Source: a virus (taxonomy: Duplodnaviria > Caudoviricetes). Taken from it: 64,000 nucleotides of DNA. The stretch lies in the IMG/VR virus record IMGVR_UViG_3300005573_001593, positions 23,534 to 87,533 of that record. One strand, written 5' to 3'. Position 1 is the stretch's first letter. The number at the start of each line of letters is the position of its first letter. Made by a program: the position numbers and the translations under genes. Under the pieces are notes generated by a model, which saw only the letters and a list, made by a program, of their open reading frames with translations, did not search any database and was not told where the DNA came from. Below, piece after piece: positions 27,019-31,029 of the stretch.

Positions 27019-27720
27019 TTGCTATACATGCATCGGTACACTCGCTTGTCCATTCTGCTTGTTGTCGTGGCCCTGCTGGCCGGATGCGGAACTGCCAGCG
27101 CGCAGAACGCGACCTCTCACCCGTTGCCTCGCGCTCTCCTGTTTATTGGCGATTCGCTCACCGGTGGTTATTACGCCACCGACCAAACCCATGATTATGT
27201 CGCACATGTGACAGCGGACCTCGGCTTGCCAGCGCTCTATCTCAGCAAGCACTACGGCATTCGCGCCGATGAGGTGCAGGCTGAAATCCAGCACGGGCTG
27301 GCCATTCCACCCGCGCGCATCACGGTTGTAGAACTGGGCACCAACGATTTCAGTGGCTATTCGCTCGTCGGAGCACACACGCCAGAAGGGCTCGCAGCCT
27401 TTACTACGGCCTATCGTGCGCTGCTGGGCGAGATCCGCCACGTCGCGCCCAGCACACGATTAGTCTGCATTGGCATCTGGCACGTGCCGGGTGACACGAA
27501 TGACCTGCATGAGACGGCAGGGAGCTATGACCAGCACATCGCCAGCGCATGTCAGGCGGCCCACGGCACCTACGTTTCGCTAGAGGCCATCGCCGCCAAT
27601 GGCGCGTACCGTGGACCAGTAGGGCAACACACGTGGCTGGGCCTCAATGATGGCTGGCATCCCAATGATGCGGGCCACACGGCCATCGCCGCGGCTATCG
27701 TCCACGTGCTGGGCCACTAG
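27019..27720 (+). CDS. SGNH/GDSL hydrolase lipoprotein (moron)
   Basis: Signal peptide with LLAGC lipobox; blocks FIGDSLT, GTND and DGWHPN. Confidence 0.9.
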   Translation: MLYMHRYTRLSILLVVVALLAGCGTASAQNATSHPLPRALLFIGDSLTGGYYATDQTHDYVAHVTADLGLPALYLSKHYGIRADEVQAEIQHGLAIPPARITVVELGTNDFSGYSLVGAHTPEGLAAFTTAYRALLGEIRHVAPSTRLVCIGIWHVPGDTNDLHETAGSYDQHIASACQAAHGTYVSLEAIAANGAYRGPVGQHTWLGLNDGWHPNDAGHTAIAAAIVHVLGH

Positions 27721-29205
27721 GCGACACGCGGCACGCGACACCACATCGGCCGCAGGTAGACCCCGACGCGTCCCTCATGCGTTCCATGCAGCGCGTAGCC
27801 CAGGGTGAAGGCTTCTTCACCGGGCCGGGCGCGTCGCACCCCACCGTTGCCGTCCGAGCAGACCAGATCGCCCGCGCGGATGACATCACGTGTCCGGATA
27901 CGCACGCGCCCGACCAGCGCGAGTGGCGCGACATGCTCATCTGTGACCGTGTCCTCGGGTTCGTCGTCGCTGAAGCGGTCGAACCGGCCACCACCCGCGC
28001 AGAAGGCGGGCGCGAGCGAGACGACCGAGGCGGCGTGGCAGTTGTCGTGCATGCAGCGGGTGAAGGCCTCATGCGGGCCGGGACAAACCACCGTGCCCGT
28101 TTCGTACTCCGCGTCCAGCGGGTAGGTTTCGGCGTAGTCGAACGCGTCGAACGCCCCATTGGCGCTATAGGCATAGGTGCTCGTGGCGGTATAGTACGTG
28201 CCGCCCGCGATGATGAACGTGCCGTCGCCCTTCATTTCCGCGAGCTTGCCACCACCACTGTTCTTGAAGCCCATGATGGAGGAGTTGGACTGCACGAACT
28301 GACCGCTGACGCCCAGCCCGTTCACGTTCACGCCGCCCGGCCCAACCTGAAAACCGGAGTGAAAGGTGTTGCTGCTGTCGTAGTAGCCAAACTGGACCGT
28401 GGGCGAGATCGTGGCCCACCAGCCACCAATTTGCACCCAGACATTCGTGCCATTGTACGTCGAGCGTGCTCCGGCTGCGGTCGTGCCCTGCGCCAGCACA
28501 TCGCCACTGAGCGGCCCACTGAACTCGTTCGCGGTCGCCGTACCGGAGACCGAGAGGCCAGCGCCATTGAAGATGCCCGTGTTGTCCACATGGGCATTCT
28601 TGGCGGCGTTGAAATACGTCCAGTTGTTCGCACCCGGCGCGATGACAATGTCCCACGGGTTAGCTGCGAACTGGATATAGTTTGTCTGGCCGGGACCGTA
28701 GAGCGTGGAACCAATGGAGATGCTGCCACTCGTTGTGAAGCCGCCAGCCGTGACTGTGCCAGTGAACGTGATGCCATTCTTGGTCGCGCCCTCATAGACG
28801 TAGCCCGCGTTGACCTCATCGTAGAGGTAGCCACCCACGGTGCCGCTGGAATTGTAGCCATGCGCCAGACCCAGCGTTCCACTCGTTGAGTACACCGTGT
28901 AGGCATCGCCACTGGACGGCTTGAACGTCACCGTGCCCGTGAAGACCGAACCACCCGATGAGCCGCCCGTCACCGAGCCGGAAACGCTCAGGTTGCCCGT
29001 AATGGTGACGTTGCCGTTGCCGTCTGACGTGAACTTGCCCGCGTCACTGGACAGATGCCCGATGGTCGCCAGTCCGGAGACGGTGATCGTCGTGAACGAC
29101 GGATCGGTCGCGTTATTGAGCGCGGCCAGATTCGCATTGACATCAGACGAGCGTATAACAGTGGAGGGTGTGAAACGTGATTAGCGTTGCGCCAAGACCG
29201 GCCAT
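27717..29205 (-). CDS. Tail fibre/spike with C-terminal autocleaving chaperone-like domain; start is one base out of frame
   Basis: FTPSTVIRSSDVNANL N-terminal motif, G/T/N-rich body, C-terminal DYAE...PLALVGRV (peptidase G2/IMC-like); ATG at 29205 to stop is 1489 nt (3n+1), extra T in TTT at 29173-29175. Confidence 0.75.
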
Positions 29206-29223
29206 TCGCTACCCCCTAGCACT

Positions 29224-29258
29224 TTGAACGGGTAGCGTGCAATACGCTACCCGTTCAA
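29224..29258. other. Perfect 15-bp hairpin between the endonuclease and the new fibre start
   Basis: TTGAACGGGTAGCGT-gcaat-ACGCTACCCGTTCAA; no U tract on either strand. Confidence 0.7.
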
Positions 29259-29270
29259 TCTGATTAACCG

Positions 29271-30233
29271 TTACTGACTTCGCCGCTTGCGACGCCCTTC
29301 AGCGTACGCCCGTTTGAGCGACTCGCTCCGCTTGGCGCGGGTCTCTGCGCTCTGGACGTGGCCGCGTTTCTTTTCTGCGATGCGTCGCTTCGTTTCCTCA
29401 GAGTGTGGCGTGGTATGGTACGCTTTCCCCAGGTGTGCAAGACGCATGCGCTCCAAGCCTTCCGGCGTCATCTGCGGTGGCTTGATCTCGCCTCGTGCGG
29501 CCCGCTCCAGGCCGATCTGGCGCAACTTCTCTCGTGTTTCCGATCCCCACGTCTTGCCTTTATTCCAGCCGCCAAAGTCCGCGCGAACTGACCTGCGGCC
29601 TTCAGCATAGGCGTGTTTGAGGGCTTCCGAACGCTTCTGACGTGTTTCAGCAGATTGCTTGCGGCCAGTCTGCCACGCGCGTACACGAGCACGGTACTCA
29701 TCTGTGCCATGGTGAAGGCGTATAGCCGCAGAAAGTCTTTCGCGGGTCGCCTCACTGAGCGGCACACCCTTATTGGATGGCACCTGCCCGAGATGGGCTA
29801 TGGAGAGCTTGCGGCGGTACTCGGCGCTGAAGGTCTTGCCCGAGTGAGGATGCCCATCTCGTTGAAGGCGTCGTCGTGCCGCCTCAGCCATGCGCTGGCG
29901 CATCTCTGGCGTGAAATCGAATGGCTTGTTTACCTGAAACGCGACATTGAGTTGCGGCGCGAGCGTGTCTATCCAGTGCTGCTCACGCTCCGTAAGCCGG
30001 TCGGGTGAACACTGTTCCAGCACAGCCCACTGGAAGGCTTTCTCTCCGTATTTGTTCCACTCATGTTGGAAATGGGGGCTGTGGTGCTTGTTAGCGCGAA
30101 GGAGCTCGAGATGATCGTTCCAGCGCCGTTCAATGTCAATAGAGCGACCGATGTACTGTTTTCCGGTGGGGATACACGTGGCGGCATAGATACCGCACAG
30201 CGATAAAGAGGCAGACTCGTCCACTGTTCTCAC
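29271..30233 (-). CDS. GIY-YIG homing endonuclease with NUMOD3-type repeats
   Basis: GIYAATCIPTGKQYIGRS, RWNDH; repeated H/QSxETR/KxK/R motifs; QSAETRxKRSExLKxAYAEGRR present twice. Confidence 0.92.
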   Translation of the reverse strand: MRTVDESASLSLCGIYAATCIPTGKQYIGRSIDIERRWNDHLELLRANKHHSPHFQHEWNKYGEKAFQWAVLEQCSPDRLTEREQHWIDTLAPQLNVAFQVNKPFDFTPEMRQRMAEAARRRLQRDGHPHSGKTFSAEYRRKLSIAHLGQVPSNKGVPLSEATRERLSAAIRLHHGTDEYRARVRAWQTGRKQSAETRQKRSEALKHAYAEGRRSVRADFGGWNKGKTWGSETREKLRQIGLERAARGEIKPPQMTPEGLERMRLAHLGKAYHTTPHSEETKRRIAEKKRGHVQSAETRAKRSESLKRAYAEGRRKRRSQ

Positions 30234-30261
30234 TCTCTAGCGTGAGTCTCTAGATGCGATA

Positions 30262-30321
30262 CCGCCAGGGGGCCTAGAGAAACCCCTTTTCGGCTGAGGT
30301 AGCTAATCCCAACCTAGACGG
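30262..30321 (-). ncRNA. Putative structured cis-regulatory leader (three-way junction)
   Basis: Hand folding: CCGUCUAG/CUGGCGG, GGUUGGG/CUCAGCC, GAAAA linker, GGGGUUU/AGGCCCC. Confidence 0.4.
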
Positions 30322-30335
30322 CCCTTACACTATAC

Positions 30336-30363
30336 ATTATACAATTCTGCACGGTAGTCACAA
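30336..30363 (-). promoter_or_regulatory. Sigma70-type promoter for the endonuclease
   Basis: TTGTGA-16 nt-TATAAT on the minus strand. Confidence 0.55.
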
Positions 30364-30372
30364 GTCCGGTAA

Positions 30373-30429
30373 TTAACGGTGTTGGACAGTCGATGGCGTA
30401 AACGTCATCAAGGAAGCGCCAAGGCCCAT
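30373..30429 (-). pseudogene. Stranded original 5' end of the fibre gene (18 codons)
   Basis: MGLGASLMTFTPSTVQHR*, 3 nt after the upstream stop; first 15 residues match the fibre N-terminus. Confidence 0.75.
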
Positions 30430-30432
30430 CGG

Positions 30433-31029
30433 TTATGCCCCTTTCTGCTTCCGTCGTCGTGGGACGTTCCGCGAGACAGGCGCCACTGGCACGTCGCGGT
30501 GCGGGTAGAGTCGGTGGAGCTCCTGCGCCGCAGGTACGGCTTGGAAGAGCGGCTCATGGGTCCGCGGGTGCAGGTCGCACAGGTCCGCTGCGTTGAGATA
30601 CCAGACATGCTCTGGCACATCTGGATGATTGGCGTGTGTGGCCGTGATCACGAGCAGCACTGGCTCCCCACCCGTCACGGGATCACGCTCGTCCGTCCCA
30701 ATGGGGAAGTAGCGGCTCTTGGGCTGCACGTCTACGTGCATGCGTGCCACATTGCCCGCCGCGCCGAAGTGCTCGCTGAGCGCCTGGGGAAACAACCGGC
30801 CCTGCTGCGTACTGGCGTGTATGCGCTCGTGCGCGGCAGGCGTCACATCGACCGGGATGCGCTTGACATCCGCGAGATCAAACCGTTTGCGCGCGGGTAC
30901 AGGGCGTGGCGTGGGTGGCGTCGCCGGAAGCAGATGCTTGGCCTGTCCCTCGCGAATCACCTGGTTCTTGCGTGCACGTGCTGCACGTTGCTGCGCGGGG
31001 GAGAGTGGCTCGGGTCGTGGCATGTCCAT
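30433..31029 (-). CDS. Hypothetical phage protein
   Basis: 198-aa ORF within the tail operon. Confidence 0.65.
   Translation of the reverse strand: MDMPRPEPLSPAQQRAARARKNQVIREGQAKHLLPATPPTPRPVPARKRFDLADVKRIPVDVTPAAHERIHASTQQGRLFPQALSEHFGAAGNVARMHVDVQPKSRYFPIGTDERDPVTGGEPVLLVITATHANHPDVPEHVWYLNAADLCDLHPRTHEPLFQAVPAAQELHRLYPHRDVPVAPVSRNVPRRRKQKGA

What the first reader, a model, noticed from the sequence alone, without database searches (positions are those of the whole stretch)
29158..30429. Homing-endonuclease cassette that splits a tail-fibre gene and supplies a recoded replacement start
Seen: on the minus strand an 18-codon mini-ORF (ATG GGC CTT GGC GCT TCC TTG ATG ACG TTT ACG CCA TCG ACT GT..., MGLGASLMTFTPSTV) is coupled to the upstream tail gene. 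It is followed by a promoter, a GIY-YIG/NUMOD3 gene, a hairpin, a new SD and a second start (ATG GCC GGT CTT GGC GCA ACG CTA ATC ACG TTT c ACA CCC TCC ACT GT..., MAGLGATLITF-TPSTV). The copies agree as protein but differ at most third codon positions. Deleting the segment between the two ACTGT copies gives an uninterrupted fibre ORF. Known: fungal mitochondrial GIY-YIG elements carry replacement gene ends, and free-standing phage endonucleases spread with cleavage-resistant alleles. Inference: an intron-less element that homes into a gene's 5' end and brings a nuclease-resistant N-terminus with its own expression signals. I do not know a described case in a phage fibre gene.
Basis: partly seen in the sequence, partly recalled or inferred. 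Interest (0 to 1): 0.82.

Follow-up and report, generated by a model that had tools for sequence, protein, structure and literature searches.

The report
Endonuclease cassette with frameshifted replacement fibre start
A selfish DNA-cutting-enzyme gene sits in the first codons of a prophage tail-fibre gene and brings a recoded replacement start, but that start is one base out of frame at a slippery UUU-C, so the fibre is made only if ribosomes shift +1 there, or not at all.

Summary
On the minus strand lie an 18-codon stub of the fibre start, a promoter, a structured leader, an intact GIY-YIG/NUMOD3 endonuclease gene, a hairpin, a strong Shine-Dalgarno and a second, synonymously recoded start. 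Removing 30390-29163 restores a 494-codon ORF.

New here:
1. The same 1.2-kb cassette (30376-29172) sits in the same gene of a second prophage, about 75-80% identical, probably in the same host genome. Only the cassette exceeds 90% identity.
2. No intron signature was found, and no in-frame junction obeys the group I splice rule.
3. In both copies the replacement start is out of frame by one extra base (ACG TTT C), exactly where cassette conservation ends.
4. Skipping that base gives a product that aligns without gaps to uninterrupted homologues.

Best reading: an intron-less homing cassette of the "replacement gene end" kind. The closest described layout is the phage T4 MobA/gene 60 element, which pairs a homologous replacement region with a recoding site at its 3' end. 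Expression would need a +1 shift at UUU_C, a documented shift-prone site. This is inferred, not shown. The main rival is that both fibre genes are dead.

This scan has already reported replacement-end endonuclease cassettes on other DNA. New variant of a known kind.

The parts
30433..31029 (-). Upstream tail-module gene (198 aa, no family match). Its stop TAA lies 3 nt before the stub's ATG.
   Evidence: The orthologue in L003 is 74% identical in protein.
30373..30429 (-). Copy 1: the stranded native start of the fibre gene, an 18-codon mini-ORF (MGLGASLMTFTPSTVQHR*). The first 15 codons are family-like. Codons 16-18 look decayed, with a 1-nt deletion relative to STVIRS.
   Evidence: Against the L003 copy 1 there are 11 base differences in 45, in 7 synonymous and 2 conservative codons (read).
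29172..30376 (-). The conserved cassette (1205 nt), from TTAATTACCG to ...ATCACGTTTC. It is the only stretch at 90% identity or more to the second prophage in a 13-kb comparison.
   Evidence: dS is 0.125 in endonuclease codons 1-150, against 1.06-1.11 in the flanking genes.
30336..30363 (-). Sigma-70-like promoter TTGTGA-16-TATAAT inside the cassette.
   Evidence: Unique in the window. 27 of 29 bases over 30363-30335 are identical in L003; both differences lie in the spacer, and both hexamers are identical.
30225..30335 (-). Structured leader: a three-way junction followed by a hairpin that covers the endonuclease ribosome-binding site and start.
   Evidence: consensus fold -30.5 kcal/mol, no covariation available. 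Sub-threshold Rfam int-alpA match at 30324-30247 (27.7 bits, cutoff 35.8).
29271..30233 (-). GIY-YIG/NUMOD3 homing endonuclease gene. The likely start is GTG 30224 (317 aa). GIY-N10-YIG is present, and Arg, Glu and Asn align with the I-TevI catalytic domain (by my numbering from memory, R27, E75, N90).
   Evidence: Against the L003 copy there are three short hypervariable patches in the DNA-binding half.
29226..29256 (-). 13-bp hairpin after the endonuclease stop, with no U tract. It is kept by 2 compensatory pairs while its loop changed at 5 of 5 positions.
   Evidence: The terminator scan found none.
29173..29216 (-). Replacement translation start: GGGGG (29216-29212), a 6-nt spacer, then ATG 29205 and codons 1-11 (MAGLGATLITF). 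This is a recoded homologue of copy 1.
   Evidence: The 18 nt before the ATG are identical in L003, and the 2 differences within the 11 codons are both synonymous.
29170..29178 (-). Shift site ACG_TTT_C-AC. One extra base (C 29172, or one T of the run) separates frame 0 from the fibre frame. It lies exactly where cassette conservation ends.
   Evidence: The same ACG TTT C occurs in L003/L004.
29143..29145 (-). Frame-0 stop (TGA), which ends the unshifted 20-residue product.
   Evidence: The stop is at the same position in L003.
27717..29171 (-). Fibre/spike body in the +1 frame (484 codons, TPSTVIRSSDVNANLAALN...). The C-terminal part is shared with P0002-P0005 and resembles phage spike/fibre proteins with a Peptidase_G2 intramolecular-chaperone domain (a lead only).
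   Evidence: The first canonical start in this frame is GTG 28973, which gene callers used (P0001, 418 aa).
30386..30390 (-).
29158..29162 (-). Second ACTGT of the repeat pair.

Best explanation
This is an intron-less homing-endonuclease cassette of the "replacement gene end" type. It is 1.2 kb long and carries its own promoter, a leader that masks the endonuclease ribosome-binding site, an intact GIY-YIG/NUMOD3 endonuclease gene, a hairpin, a Shine-Dalgarno, and a recoded homologue of the fibre gene's first 11 codons.

It lies after about codon 18 of the native fibre gene, so the native start is left behind as a short dead-end ORF. That much is shown.

The following steps are inferred:
1. The endonuclease cuts cassette-free fibre alleles near the start of the gene, and repair copies the cassette in.
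2. Fibre synthesis now starts at the cassette's ATG (29205).
3. Ribosomes must slip +1 on ACG_UUU_C, with tRNA-Phe re-pairing from UUU to UUC, to enter the fibre frame. This yields a 495-residue protein colinear with uninterrupted homologues.
4. The one-base gap at the cassette's 3' edge may be a scar or "saviour indel" that spoils the enzyme's own target. That would be a minimal counterpart of the T4 MobA/gene 60 cassette.
For: Anatomy and endonuclease identity.

A second copy lies in the same gene of a syntenic prophage, L003 (identical to L004, from two metagenome assemblies).

Only the cassette is highly conserved:
- It is the only stretch at 90% identity or more in 13 kb.
- dS is 0.125 in endonuclease codons 1-150, against about 1.1 in the flanks.
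- The left break is clean at TTAATTACCG, but the host junction differs (codon 18 versus codon 21).
- The right break is at TTTC in both.

Evidence on the frameshift:
- It is present in both copies and in at least three assemblies.
- Its position at the conservation boundary is unlikely for a random later mutation, roughly 5 positions in about 1450.
- Skipping one base gives products that align without gaps to uninterrupted homologues P0129, P0132 and P0135.
- Both differences in codons 1-11 are synonymous in frame 0. After TTTC, the +1 frame is the conserved one.
- The 18 nt of Shine-Dalgarno region are identical, while the adjacent hairpin changed at 10 of 31 positions. This argues that initiation at copy 2 is under selection.

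Literature:
- UUU_Ynn is described as especially prone to +1 frameshifting in bacteria (PMC5009743).
- The MobA element carries a homologous replacement region plus a recoding cassette at its 3' end, with a variable 5' insertion point (bioRxiv 10.1101/2022.08.31.505936).
Against: - No known stimulator of +1 shifting is present. The frame-0 codon after UUU is CAC or CUC, both common here, and there is no stop or Shine-Dalgarno-like element next to the site.
- In-frame UUU_Y occurs 29 times in ordinary long ORFs of the window, so the site alone cannot shift efficiently.
- There are only two copies, and they are probably paralogues in one host genome. All four proteins map to one 384,404-bp contig. 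The shared frameshift could therefore have been copied between resident prophages without any test of phage viability.
- The overlapping codons 12-21 of copy 1 and of the fibre body differ by 20-27% within each genome. A simple recent insertion with a target duplication does not predict this.
- The endonuclease's target, cleavage site and self-immunity are untested.
- No DNA of a cassette-free cognate allele could be fetched.
Confidence: 0.5

Rival explanations
1. The cassette is as described, but the fibre genes of both prophages are dead. A one-base insertion arose once next to the cassette and was carried to the second, co-resident prophage by endonuclease-driven or ordinary gene conversion inside the lysogen. 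No full-length fibre is made.
For: - Both prophages seem to lie in one genome, so transfer needs no viable phage.
- There is no hungry codon, stop or Shine-Dalgarno-like stimulator at the site, and UUU_Y is common in normal genes.
- Gene callers find only truncated or off-frame products (P0001, P0125).
Against: - The insertion lies exactly at the cassette's conservation boundary, not at a random place in about 1450 nt.
- The Shine-Dalgarno and start region of copy 2 is perfectly conserved next to a strongly diverged hairpin.
- Since the two cassettes separated (dS 0.12-0.35), the 484-codon fibre frame, both endonuclease ORFs and the neighbouring long tail ORFs have stayed open.
- The record is rated complete.
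Confidence: 0.32
2. The cassette is not currently mobile. It entered the common ancestor of the two prophages once, and its high identity reflects later gene conversion between two related prophages in one chromosome plus functional constraint. This concerns history rather than mechanism and can coexist with either reading of the frameshift.
For: - Short parts of the endonuclease are as diverged as the flanks (dS 1.3 over codons 151-275; patchwork of identity).
- The hairpin loop is fully diverged.
- The two copies probably share one genome.
Against: - Copy 1 differs between the two prophages almost only synonymously. That fits a gene that was intact for most of their divergence, meaning a late insertion.
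- The conversion borders coincide with the element's ends on both sides.
- Both endonuclease genes are intact with catalytic residues.
Confidence: 0.3
3. The cassette is a self-splicing intron (group I or II) carrying the endonuclease ORF. Splicing would join the stub (exon 1) to the fibre body.
For: - The non-coding parts (about 140 nt and about 100 nt) are structured and well conserved.
- Removing the segment between short repeats restores the ORF.
- Many relatives of the enzyme carry the source annotation "group I intron endonuclease".
Against: - No intron family matched, even at E up to 10 over 2 kb.
- No in-register junction has exon 1 ending in U and the intron ending in G (read).
- The stub ends in different phases in the two copies (a 7-nt indel), so an intron with fixed ends cannot be in frame in both.
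- The cassette holds a promoter, and a Shine-Dalgarno plus ATG plus homologous codons, which an intron does not need.
Confidence: 0.04
4. The extra base is a sequencing or assembly artefact, or the fibre gene is restored at the DNA level by deletion between the short repeats when the prophage is induced.
For: The extra base sits in a short T run. The direct repeats (5 nt here, 11 nt in L003) would permit rare deletion.
Against: - The same base is present in two diverged copies and in independent assemblies.
- A run of three T is not an error-prone homopolymer.
- The repeats are too short and imperfect for efficient recombination.
Confidence: 0.05

Closest known systems
[quoted passage not shown] 2011 as cited in PMC5009743; Manning and Atkins, bioRxiv 10.1101/2022.08.31.505936)
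   Same: - Both are free-standing endonuclease genes inserted inside an essential phage gene.
- Both elements carry a diverged homologue of the host-gene segment around the presumed cut site.
- In both, a break in the reading frame sits at the element's 3' end.
- Both show a clean 5' break with a slightly variable insertion point and a fixed 3' end (searches compared).
   Different: - The enzyme here is GIY-YIG/NUMOD3, not HNH.
- The target is a fibre gene's first codons, not the topoisomerase gene.
- The host segment is duplicated and stranded as a stub rather than deleted.
- The coding gap is a single base at UUU_C, not a 50-nt hop with take-off and landing codons, a stem-loop and a nascent-peptide signal.
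- Neither decoding nor protection from cleavage is shown here.
Fungal mitochondrial mobile endonuclease ORFs (mORFs) that form gene hybrids: Allomyces macrogynus atp6, and Glomus atp6, atp9, cox2 and nad3 (PMC3630166)
   Same: The endonuclease ORF travels with a foreign copy of a gene end that replaces the native one. The native end is left as a diverged duplicate. The atp9 case uses a GIY-YIG enzyme.
   Different: Those elements replace 3' ends and are usually read in phase with the host gene. Here the 5' end is replaced, so the element has to supply a promoter, a Shine-Dalgarno and an ATG, and the replacement is out of frame by one base.
WHO elements of Torulaspora and Lachancea yeasts, which home into FBA1 (Coughlan et al. 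2020, PMC7282813)
   Same: Homing works without an intron or intein, by replacing one end of the host gene at each integration and leaving relics.
   Different: They are eukaryotic and nuclear, use an intein-derived LAGLIDADG-type enzyme, and replace a 3' end. No recoding is involved.
Genes split by free-standing endonucleases in T4-like phages: mobE in nrdA of Aeh1, and seg in gene 43 of phage 25 (PMC2988022)
   Same: A free-standing endonuclease gene interrupts a coding gene, and the downstream part gets its own start.
   Different: In those cases both halves are large functional polypeptides that reassemble. Here the upstream piece is an 18-codon stub, and the whole protein is re-encoded downstream.
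+1 ribosomal frameshifting at UUU_Y: bacterial UUU_Ynn sites, Yersinia YopN-TyeA, influenza PA-X at UCC_UUU_CGU (PMC5009743)
   Same: The same shift-prone tetranucleotide, read by tRNA-Phe re-pairing from UUU to UUC.
   Different: Those cases make a minor second product from an intact main ORF. Here the shifted product would be the only useful one, and no stimulator is evident.

Membership tests
GIY-YIG homing endonucleases (I-TevI type) | GIY-N(10-11)-YIG catalytic module with the conserved Arg, Glu and Asn | tested here: met
   Pfam PF01541 E 1e-10. I-TevI catalytic domain 1mk0/1ln0 E 7e-8, with GIY, YIG, ERRW, EREQHWI and QLN aligned.
GIY-YIG homing endonucleases (I-TevI type) | C-terminal modular DNA-binding region (NUMOD repeats) | tested here: met
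   PF07460 NUMOD3 E 8e-12. Several ET(R/K)-type repeats are present, and hypervariable patches lie in this half.
GIY-YIG homing endonucleases (I-TevI type) | Site-specific cleavage of endonuclease-free alleles, and resistance of the carrier allele | not testable with these tools
   This needs purified enzyme and substrates.
Mobile homing element (any type) | Presence/absence polymorphism at one site among related genomes, with the element younger than its flanks | tested here: inconclusive
   - The element is much less diverged than its flanks.
- Uninterrupted homologues exist at 40-75% protein identity.
- The two copies may share one genome.
Group I intron | Conserved catalytic core detectable by covariance models | tested here: not met
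   No Intron_gpI or subtype match at E up to 10 in 28800-30800. A core split by the ORF could escape detection.
Group I intron | Exon 1 ends in U, the intron ends in G, and the ligated exons are in frame | tested here: not met
   At no in-register position is copy 1 a U and the copy-2 side a G. The phases of the stub ends differ between the two copies.
Group II intron | Domain V/VI, and GUGYG...AY boundaries | tested here: not met
   No Rfam match. The boundaries read UUAAUU...UUUC.
MobA-type composite cassette (endonuclease, homologous replacement region and recoding site) | An element-encoded region homologous to, but diverged from, the host segment it displaces | tested here: met
   Copy 2 codons 1-11 encode the family N-terminus, with 12 of 45 base differences from copy 1 over the shared codons.
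MobA-type composite cassette (endonuclease, homologous replacement region and recoding site) | A frame break at the 3' end of the element that is decoded by the ribosome | tested here: inconclusive
   The frame break lies at the exact 3' border in both copies. Decoding is not testable here.
MobA-type composite cassette (endonuclease, homologous replacement region and recoding site) | HNH MobA-family enzyme, with the topoisomerase II large-subunit gene as target | tested here: not met
   The enzyme is GIY-YIG and the target is a fibre-like gene. It works like this element but is not a member of the family.
Programmed +1 ribosomal frameshift | A shift-prone P-site codon allowing re-pairing in +1 (UUU_Y) | tested here: met
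   ACG_UUU_CAC here and ACG_UUU_CUC in L003. The class is described in PMC5009743.
Programmed +1 ribosomal frameshift | A slow frame-0 A-site codon (stop or rare codon) or another stimulator | tested here: not met
   CAC is 58% of His codons and CUC 37% of Leu codons. There is no adjacent stop or Shine-Dalgarno-like element. Downstream stems are weak.
Programmed +1 ribosomal frameshift | Conservation of the site, and of both frames on either side, in relatives | tested here: inconclusive
   This is met in the two copies, but they are only two and probably paralogues.

The most novel reading that the evidence does not exclude
The single extra base at the cassette's 3' edge is a functional part of the element. 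It is a one-nucleotide coding gap placed at the endonuclease's own cleavage or recognition site. It makes the carrier allele uncuttable, and ribosomes read across it by slipping +1 on UUU_C. This would be the minimal form of the T4 gene 60 strategy, found with an unrelated enzyme family and target gene. It would suggest that recoding as self-immunity evolved repeatedly in homing elements.
Probability: 0.25. Interest if true: 0.8.

Novelty: new variant of a known kind. Interest (0 to 1): 0.6.

Why it matters
Homing endonucleases that enter coding genes without an intron or intein must keep the host gene working and must avoid cutting their own carrier. Only a few solutions are documented: split genes, replacement 3' ends in fungal mitochondria and yeasts, and the T4 bypass cassette.

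This locus shows replacement of a 5' end, complete with its own expression signals, in a prophage of a poorly studied host. Protein relatives of the fibre gene come from Ktedonobacterales (Chloroflexota) metagenome-assembled genomes.

In both known copies it couples this to a one-base frame break at a classic +1 shift site. If the shift is decoded, this would be a second, independent link between a homing element and translational recoding, and a simple system for testing whether such breaks serve as self-immunity. If it is not decoded, it shows how a selfish nuclease can spread a lethal lesion between co-resident prophages.

It also has a practical consequence. Gene callers truncate or mis-start the fibre gene (418 residues called, against 495).

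Tried and rejected
**Introns**
- The Rfam scan at E up to 10 gave no intron hit. It returned only a sub-threshold int-alpA match in the leader and a spurious DnaX match on the hairpin.
- A hand test of group I splice rules and of phase failed in both copies.
- Group II boundaries are absent.

**A tRNA reading UUUC as four bases**
- ARAGORN finds no tRNA gene in the window.

**Alternative starts in the fibre frame**
- The window has a TAA at 29183-29181.
- The first canonical start is GTG 28973, 66 codons in, and it is not conserved.
- L003 has an upstream GTG in the +1 frame (P0125), with no Shine-Dalgarno and no counterpart here.
- The TGATG overlap at the frame-0 stop opens the wrong frame.

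**More copies or empty sites**
- Searches that found nothing new: phage GenBank collection, IMG/VR by protein, by alignment and by DNA pattern, GTDB genomes, and JGI metagenomes (the same contig only).
- Relatives cannot be drawn for a virus record.

**RNA duplex search between the 5' and 3' non-coding parts**
- The output was uninformative.

**Other endonuclease copies in the record**
- None were found.

**Correction of an earlier reading**
- My first impression was that the middle of the endonuclease is as old as the flanks. One search revised this: the divergence is concentrated in three short patches.
Full report
**1. What is in the sequence**

Read on the minus strand, the tail-module gene 31029-30433 ends with TAA. 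Three bases later, ATG 30429 opens an 18-codon ORF (MGLGASLMTFTPSTVQHR, stop 30375-30373).

From T 30376 (TTAATTACCG) the sequence changes character:
- A TTGTGA-16-TATAAT promoter-like site lies at 30363-30336. It is unique in the window.
- A 110-nt leader follows. It folds as a three-way junction plus a hairpin over the next ribosome-binding site. It gives a sub-threshold Rfam int-alpA match of 27.7 bits against a cutoff of 35.8.
- An ORF runs from GTG 30233/30224 to 29271.

The product of that ORF matches Pfam GIY-YIG (E 1e-10) and NUMOD3 (E 8e-12). It also matches PHROG homing-endonuclease families and the I-TevI catalytic domain, with GIY, YIG, Arg, Glu and Asn aligned.

After the stop come three more elements:
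- a 13-bp hairpin without a U tract (29256-29226);
- GGGGG at 29216-29212;
- ATG 29205, followed by ten codons that re-encode the stub's peptide (MAGLGATLITF) with mostly synonymous differences.

Then there is one extra base (C 29172). After it the frame reads TPSTVIRSSDVNANLAALN... and stays open for 484 codons, to 27717.

Frame 0 from ATG 29205 stops after 20 codons (TGA 29145-29143). The fibre frame has a TAA at 29183-29181, and its first canonical start is 66 codons in (GTG 28973). Public gene calls use that GTG (P0001, 418 aa).

Deleting from the first ACTGT (30390) to the second (29162) gives a 494-codon ORF. Skipping C 29172 gives a 495-codon ORF.

**2. The interrupted gene**

The interrupted gene has no Pfam or PHROG match. 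It lies after a Sipho_tail (Dit) gene, a 668-aa protein with a carbohydrate-binding domain that matches tail-fibre families, and the 198-aa gene.

Its C-terminal third is shared with four metagenomic proteins, one of them from a Ktedonobacterales MAG. The protein atlas places it among viral proteins, some with the Peptidase_G2 intramolecular-chaperone domain of spikes and fibres (a lead only).

An exhaustive HMMER search with the N-terminal 107 residues found three uninterrupted small proteins: P0129, P0132 (Ktedonobacterales MAG) and P0135. They begin MG(L/M/I)G..L.TF.PST.IRS.DVN.NLAALN. The +1 products of both cassette-bearing genes align to them without a gap at the shift point. The extra base is therefore a pure one-base insertion in an otherwise colinear gene. 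Cassette-free relatives exist, though only at 40-75% protein identity.

**3. A second copy**

The 198-aa gene led to IMG/VR contig 3300005573_000008 (L003). An identical stretch occurs in 3300002966_000844 (L004).

This phage is syntenic with the window at 71-80% nucleotide identity. It has the same cassette in the same gene. In a 13-kb comparison, the only stretches at 90% identity or more over 150 nt are 30377-29753 and 29402-29253 (profile).

Nei-Gojobori estimates:

| Region | dS | dN/dS |
|---|---|---|
| Two flanking genes | 1.06-1.11 | about 0.16 |
| Endonuclease codons 1-150 | 0.125 | about 0.44 |
| Endonuclease last 50 codons | 0.35 | about 0.13 |

The apparently old middle of the endonuclease resolves into three short hypervariable patches in the NUMOD3 half, set between blocks of 82-92% identity. 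This is what adaptation of a DNA-binding region to different target alleles would look like, but that is inference.

On the left, high identity starts exactly at TTAATTACCG. The host junction differs, however:
- L003 keeps 21 native codons (MAGLGASLITFTPSTLIRSAQ).
- The window keeps about 18, the last three decayed and carrying a 1-nt deletion.

On the right, high identity ends exactly at ACG TTT C in both, and both have the same extra base. Independent assemblies agree, so it is not a sequencing error.

**4. A caution on independence**

Both endonucleases (P0007, P0008) and both fibre calls (P0124, P0136) are recorded on a contig of 384,404 bp from ENA/GEM. They are identical to the JGI versions apart from how the start codon is written. 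The JGI contigs are 310,400 and 69,640 bp, which sum to 380,040.

I infer that the two prophages lie in one host genome, so the two cassettes are probably paralogues.

**5. Not an intron**

- Rfam gave no group I or II match at E up to 10.
- For any in-register junction, exon 1 would have to end in U and the intron in G. No position satisfies this in either copy.
- The stubs end in different phases (a 7-nt indel), so an intron with fixed ends cannot be in frame in both.
- The cassette contains a promoter and a complete translation start, which an intron would not need.

I put splicing at about 4%.

**6. How the fibre could be made**

Three observations argue that the copy-2 start is used and that the frame break belongs to the element:
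1. The break coincides with the conservation boundary, within about 5 positions of roughly 1450.
2. The 18 nt of the Shine-Dalgarno region are identical between the copies, while the neighbouring hairpin changed at 10 of 31 positions, with two compensatory pairs and a fully changed loop.
3. The two differences in codons 1-11 are synonymous in frame 0, while after TTTC it is the +1 frame that is conserved.

The site ACG_UUU_C belongs to the UUU_Ynn class. Atkins et al. describe this class as especially prone to +1 shifting in bacteria, with Yersinia YopN-TyeA and influenza UCC_UUU_CGU as used examples (PMC5009743).

Against an efficient programmed shift:
- The next frame-0 codons (CAC, CUC) are common.
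- There is no adjacent stop or Shine-Dalgarno-like stimulator.
- In-frame UUU_Y occurs 29 times in ordinary long ORFs here.
- The predicted downstream stems are weak.

A low-level shift could still suffice for a low-copy structural protein, but that is speculation. The main rival is that both fibre genes are dead, the lesion having been copied between co-resident prophages. I weigh the two readings at roughly 50:32.

**7. History**

A simple recent insertion with a target duplication does not fit. Within each genome, the overlapping codons of the stub and of the fibre body differ by 20-27%, almost only synonymously, although they share lineage-specific residues (V16 here; L16 and A20 in L003).

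A single ancient insertion fits poorly too. The stubs differ between the two prophages almost only synonymously (7 synonymous and 2 conservative codons), as expected if they were part of an intact gene for most of the divergence.

Repeated exchange among related phages, with partial co-conversion, or import of the cassette together with a fibre allele, would fit. Two sequences cannot decide between these.

**8. Comparison with known systems**

The closest match in layout is the T4 MobA element. It combines an endonuclease, an element-encoded region homologous to the displaced host segment (67-81% identical), and a recoding cassette at the 3' end. It shows a clean 5' break, a slightly variable insertion point and a fixed 3' end, and the recoding insert protects against self-cleavage (PMC5009743).

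Other relatives in kind:
- Fungal mitochondrial mORF gene hybrids (PMC3630166) and yeast WHO elements (PMC7282813) share the replace-the-gene-end strategy, but at 3' ends.
- Split genes made by mobE, mobA and seg (PMC2988022) share the free-standing endonuclease inside a gene.

This locus is not a member of any of these families, because the enzyme family, target gene and gene end all differ. It appears to work like them.

This scan has already reported three replacement-end cassettes in other phage DNA: e1-5938753, e1-3321237 and e1-1969355 (the last one replaces a 5' end). It has also separately noted this same frameshift (e1-5972909) and the leader (e1-5972913).

**9. Verdict**

This is a new variant of a known kind.

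The distinctive and unresolved feature is the conserved one-base frame break at a UUU_C site, exactly at the cassette's 3' border. Interest 0.6.

Noticed in passing
window 30225-30335 (-): The endonuclease leader folds into a three-way junction followed by a hairpin that covers the ribosome-binding site and the GTG start. It gives a sub-threshold Rfam int-alpA match (27.7 bits, cutoff 35.8). It is 97% identical in the second copy, so no covariation is available.
   Followed up: partly
window 29226-29256 (-) and L003 5804-5835: The hairpin after the endonuclease stop is kept by two compensatory base-pair changes and one wobble change, while all five loop bases differ. It has no U tract, so it is probably not a simple terminator.
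   Followed up: partly
window 29271-30224 (-), residues about 158-175, 210-220 and 246-270: Three short hypervariable patches lie in the NUMOD3/DNA-binding half of the endonuclease, between blocks 82-93% identical to the second copy. They may reflect adaptation to different target alleles.
   Followed up: partly
window 29165-29216 (-): In the consensus fold, the Shine-Dalgarno GGGGU of the replacement start pairs with (A/G)CCCU, which lies 2-6 nt after the shift site. The translation start and the shift site are therefore enclosed in one stem.
   Followed up: no
L003 5857-6225 and 6235-7578, compared with window 27717-29205: In the second prophage the conserved N-terminal module is a separate 122-residue protein, followed by an unrelated 447-residue ORF. 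In the window it is fused to a 380-residue spike-like body. Homologues P0129, P0132 and P0135 are also small stand-alone proteins, so the module may be an adaptor that is sometimes fused to the receptor-binding part.
   Followed up: partly
whole record (G000) and the L003 contig: Both endonucleases and both fibre products are recorded on one 384,404-bp ENA/GEM contig. The JGI contigs of 310,400 and 69,640 bp sum to 380,040. Two related prophages, about 75-80% identical, probably lie close together in one host chromosome, possibly a Ktedonobacterales-like organism.
   Followed up: partly
window 28988-29143 (-): The frame-0 stop of the short copy-2 peptide overlaps an ATG (TGATG). That ATG opens a 51-codon ORF in the third frame. 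It is probably fortuitous.
   Followed up: no
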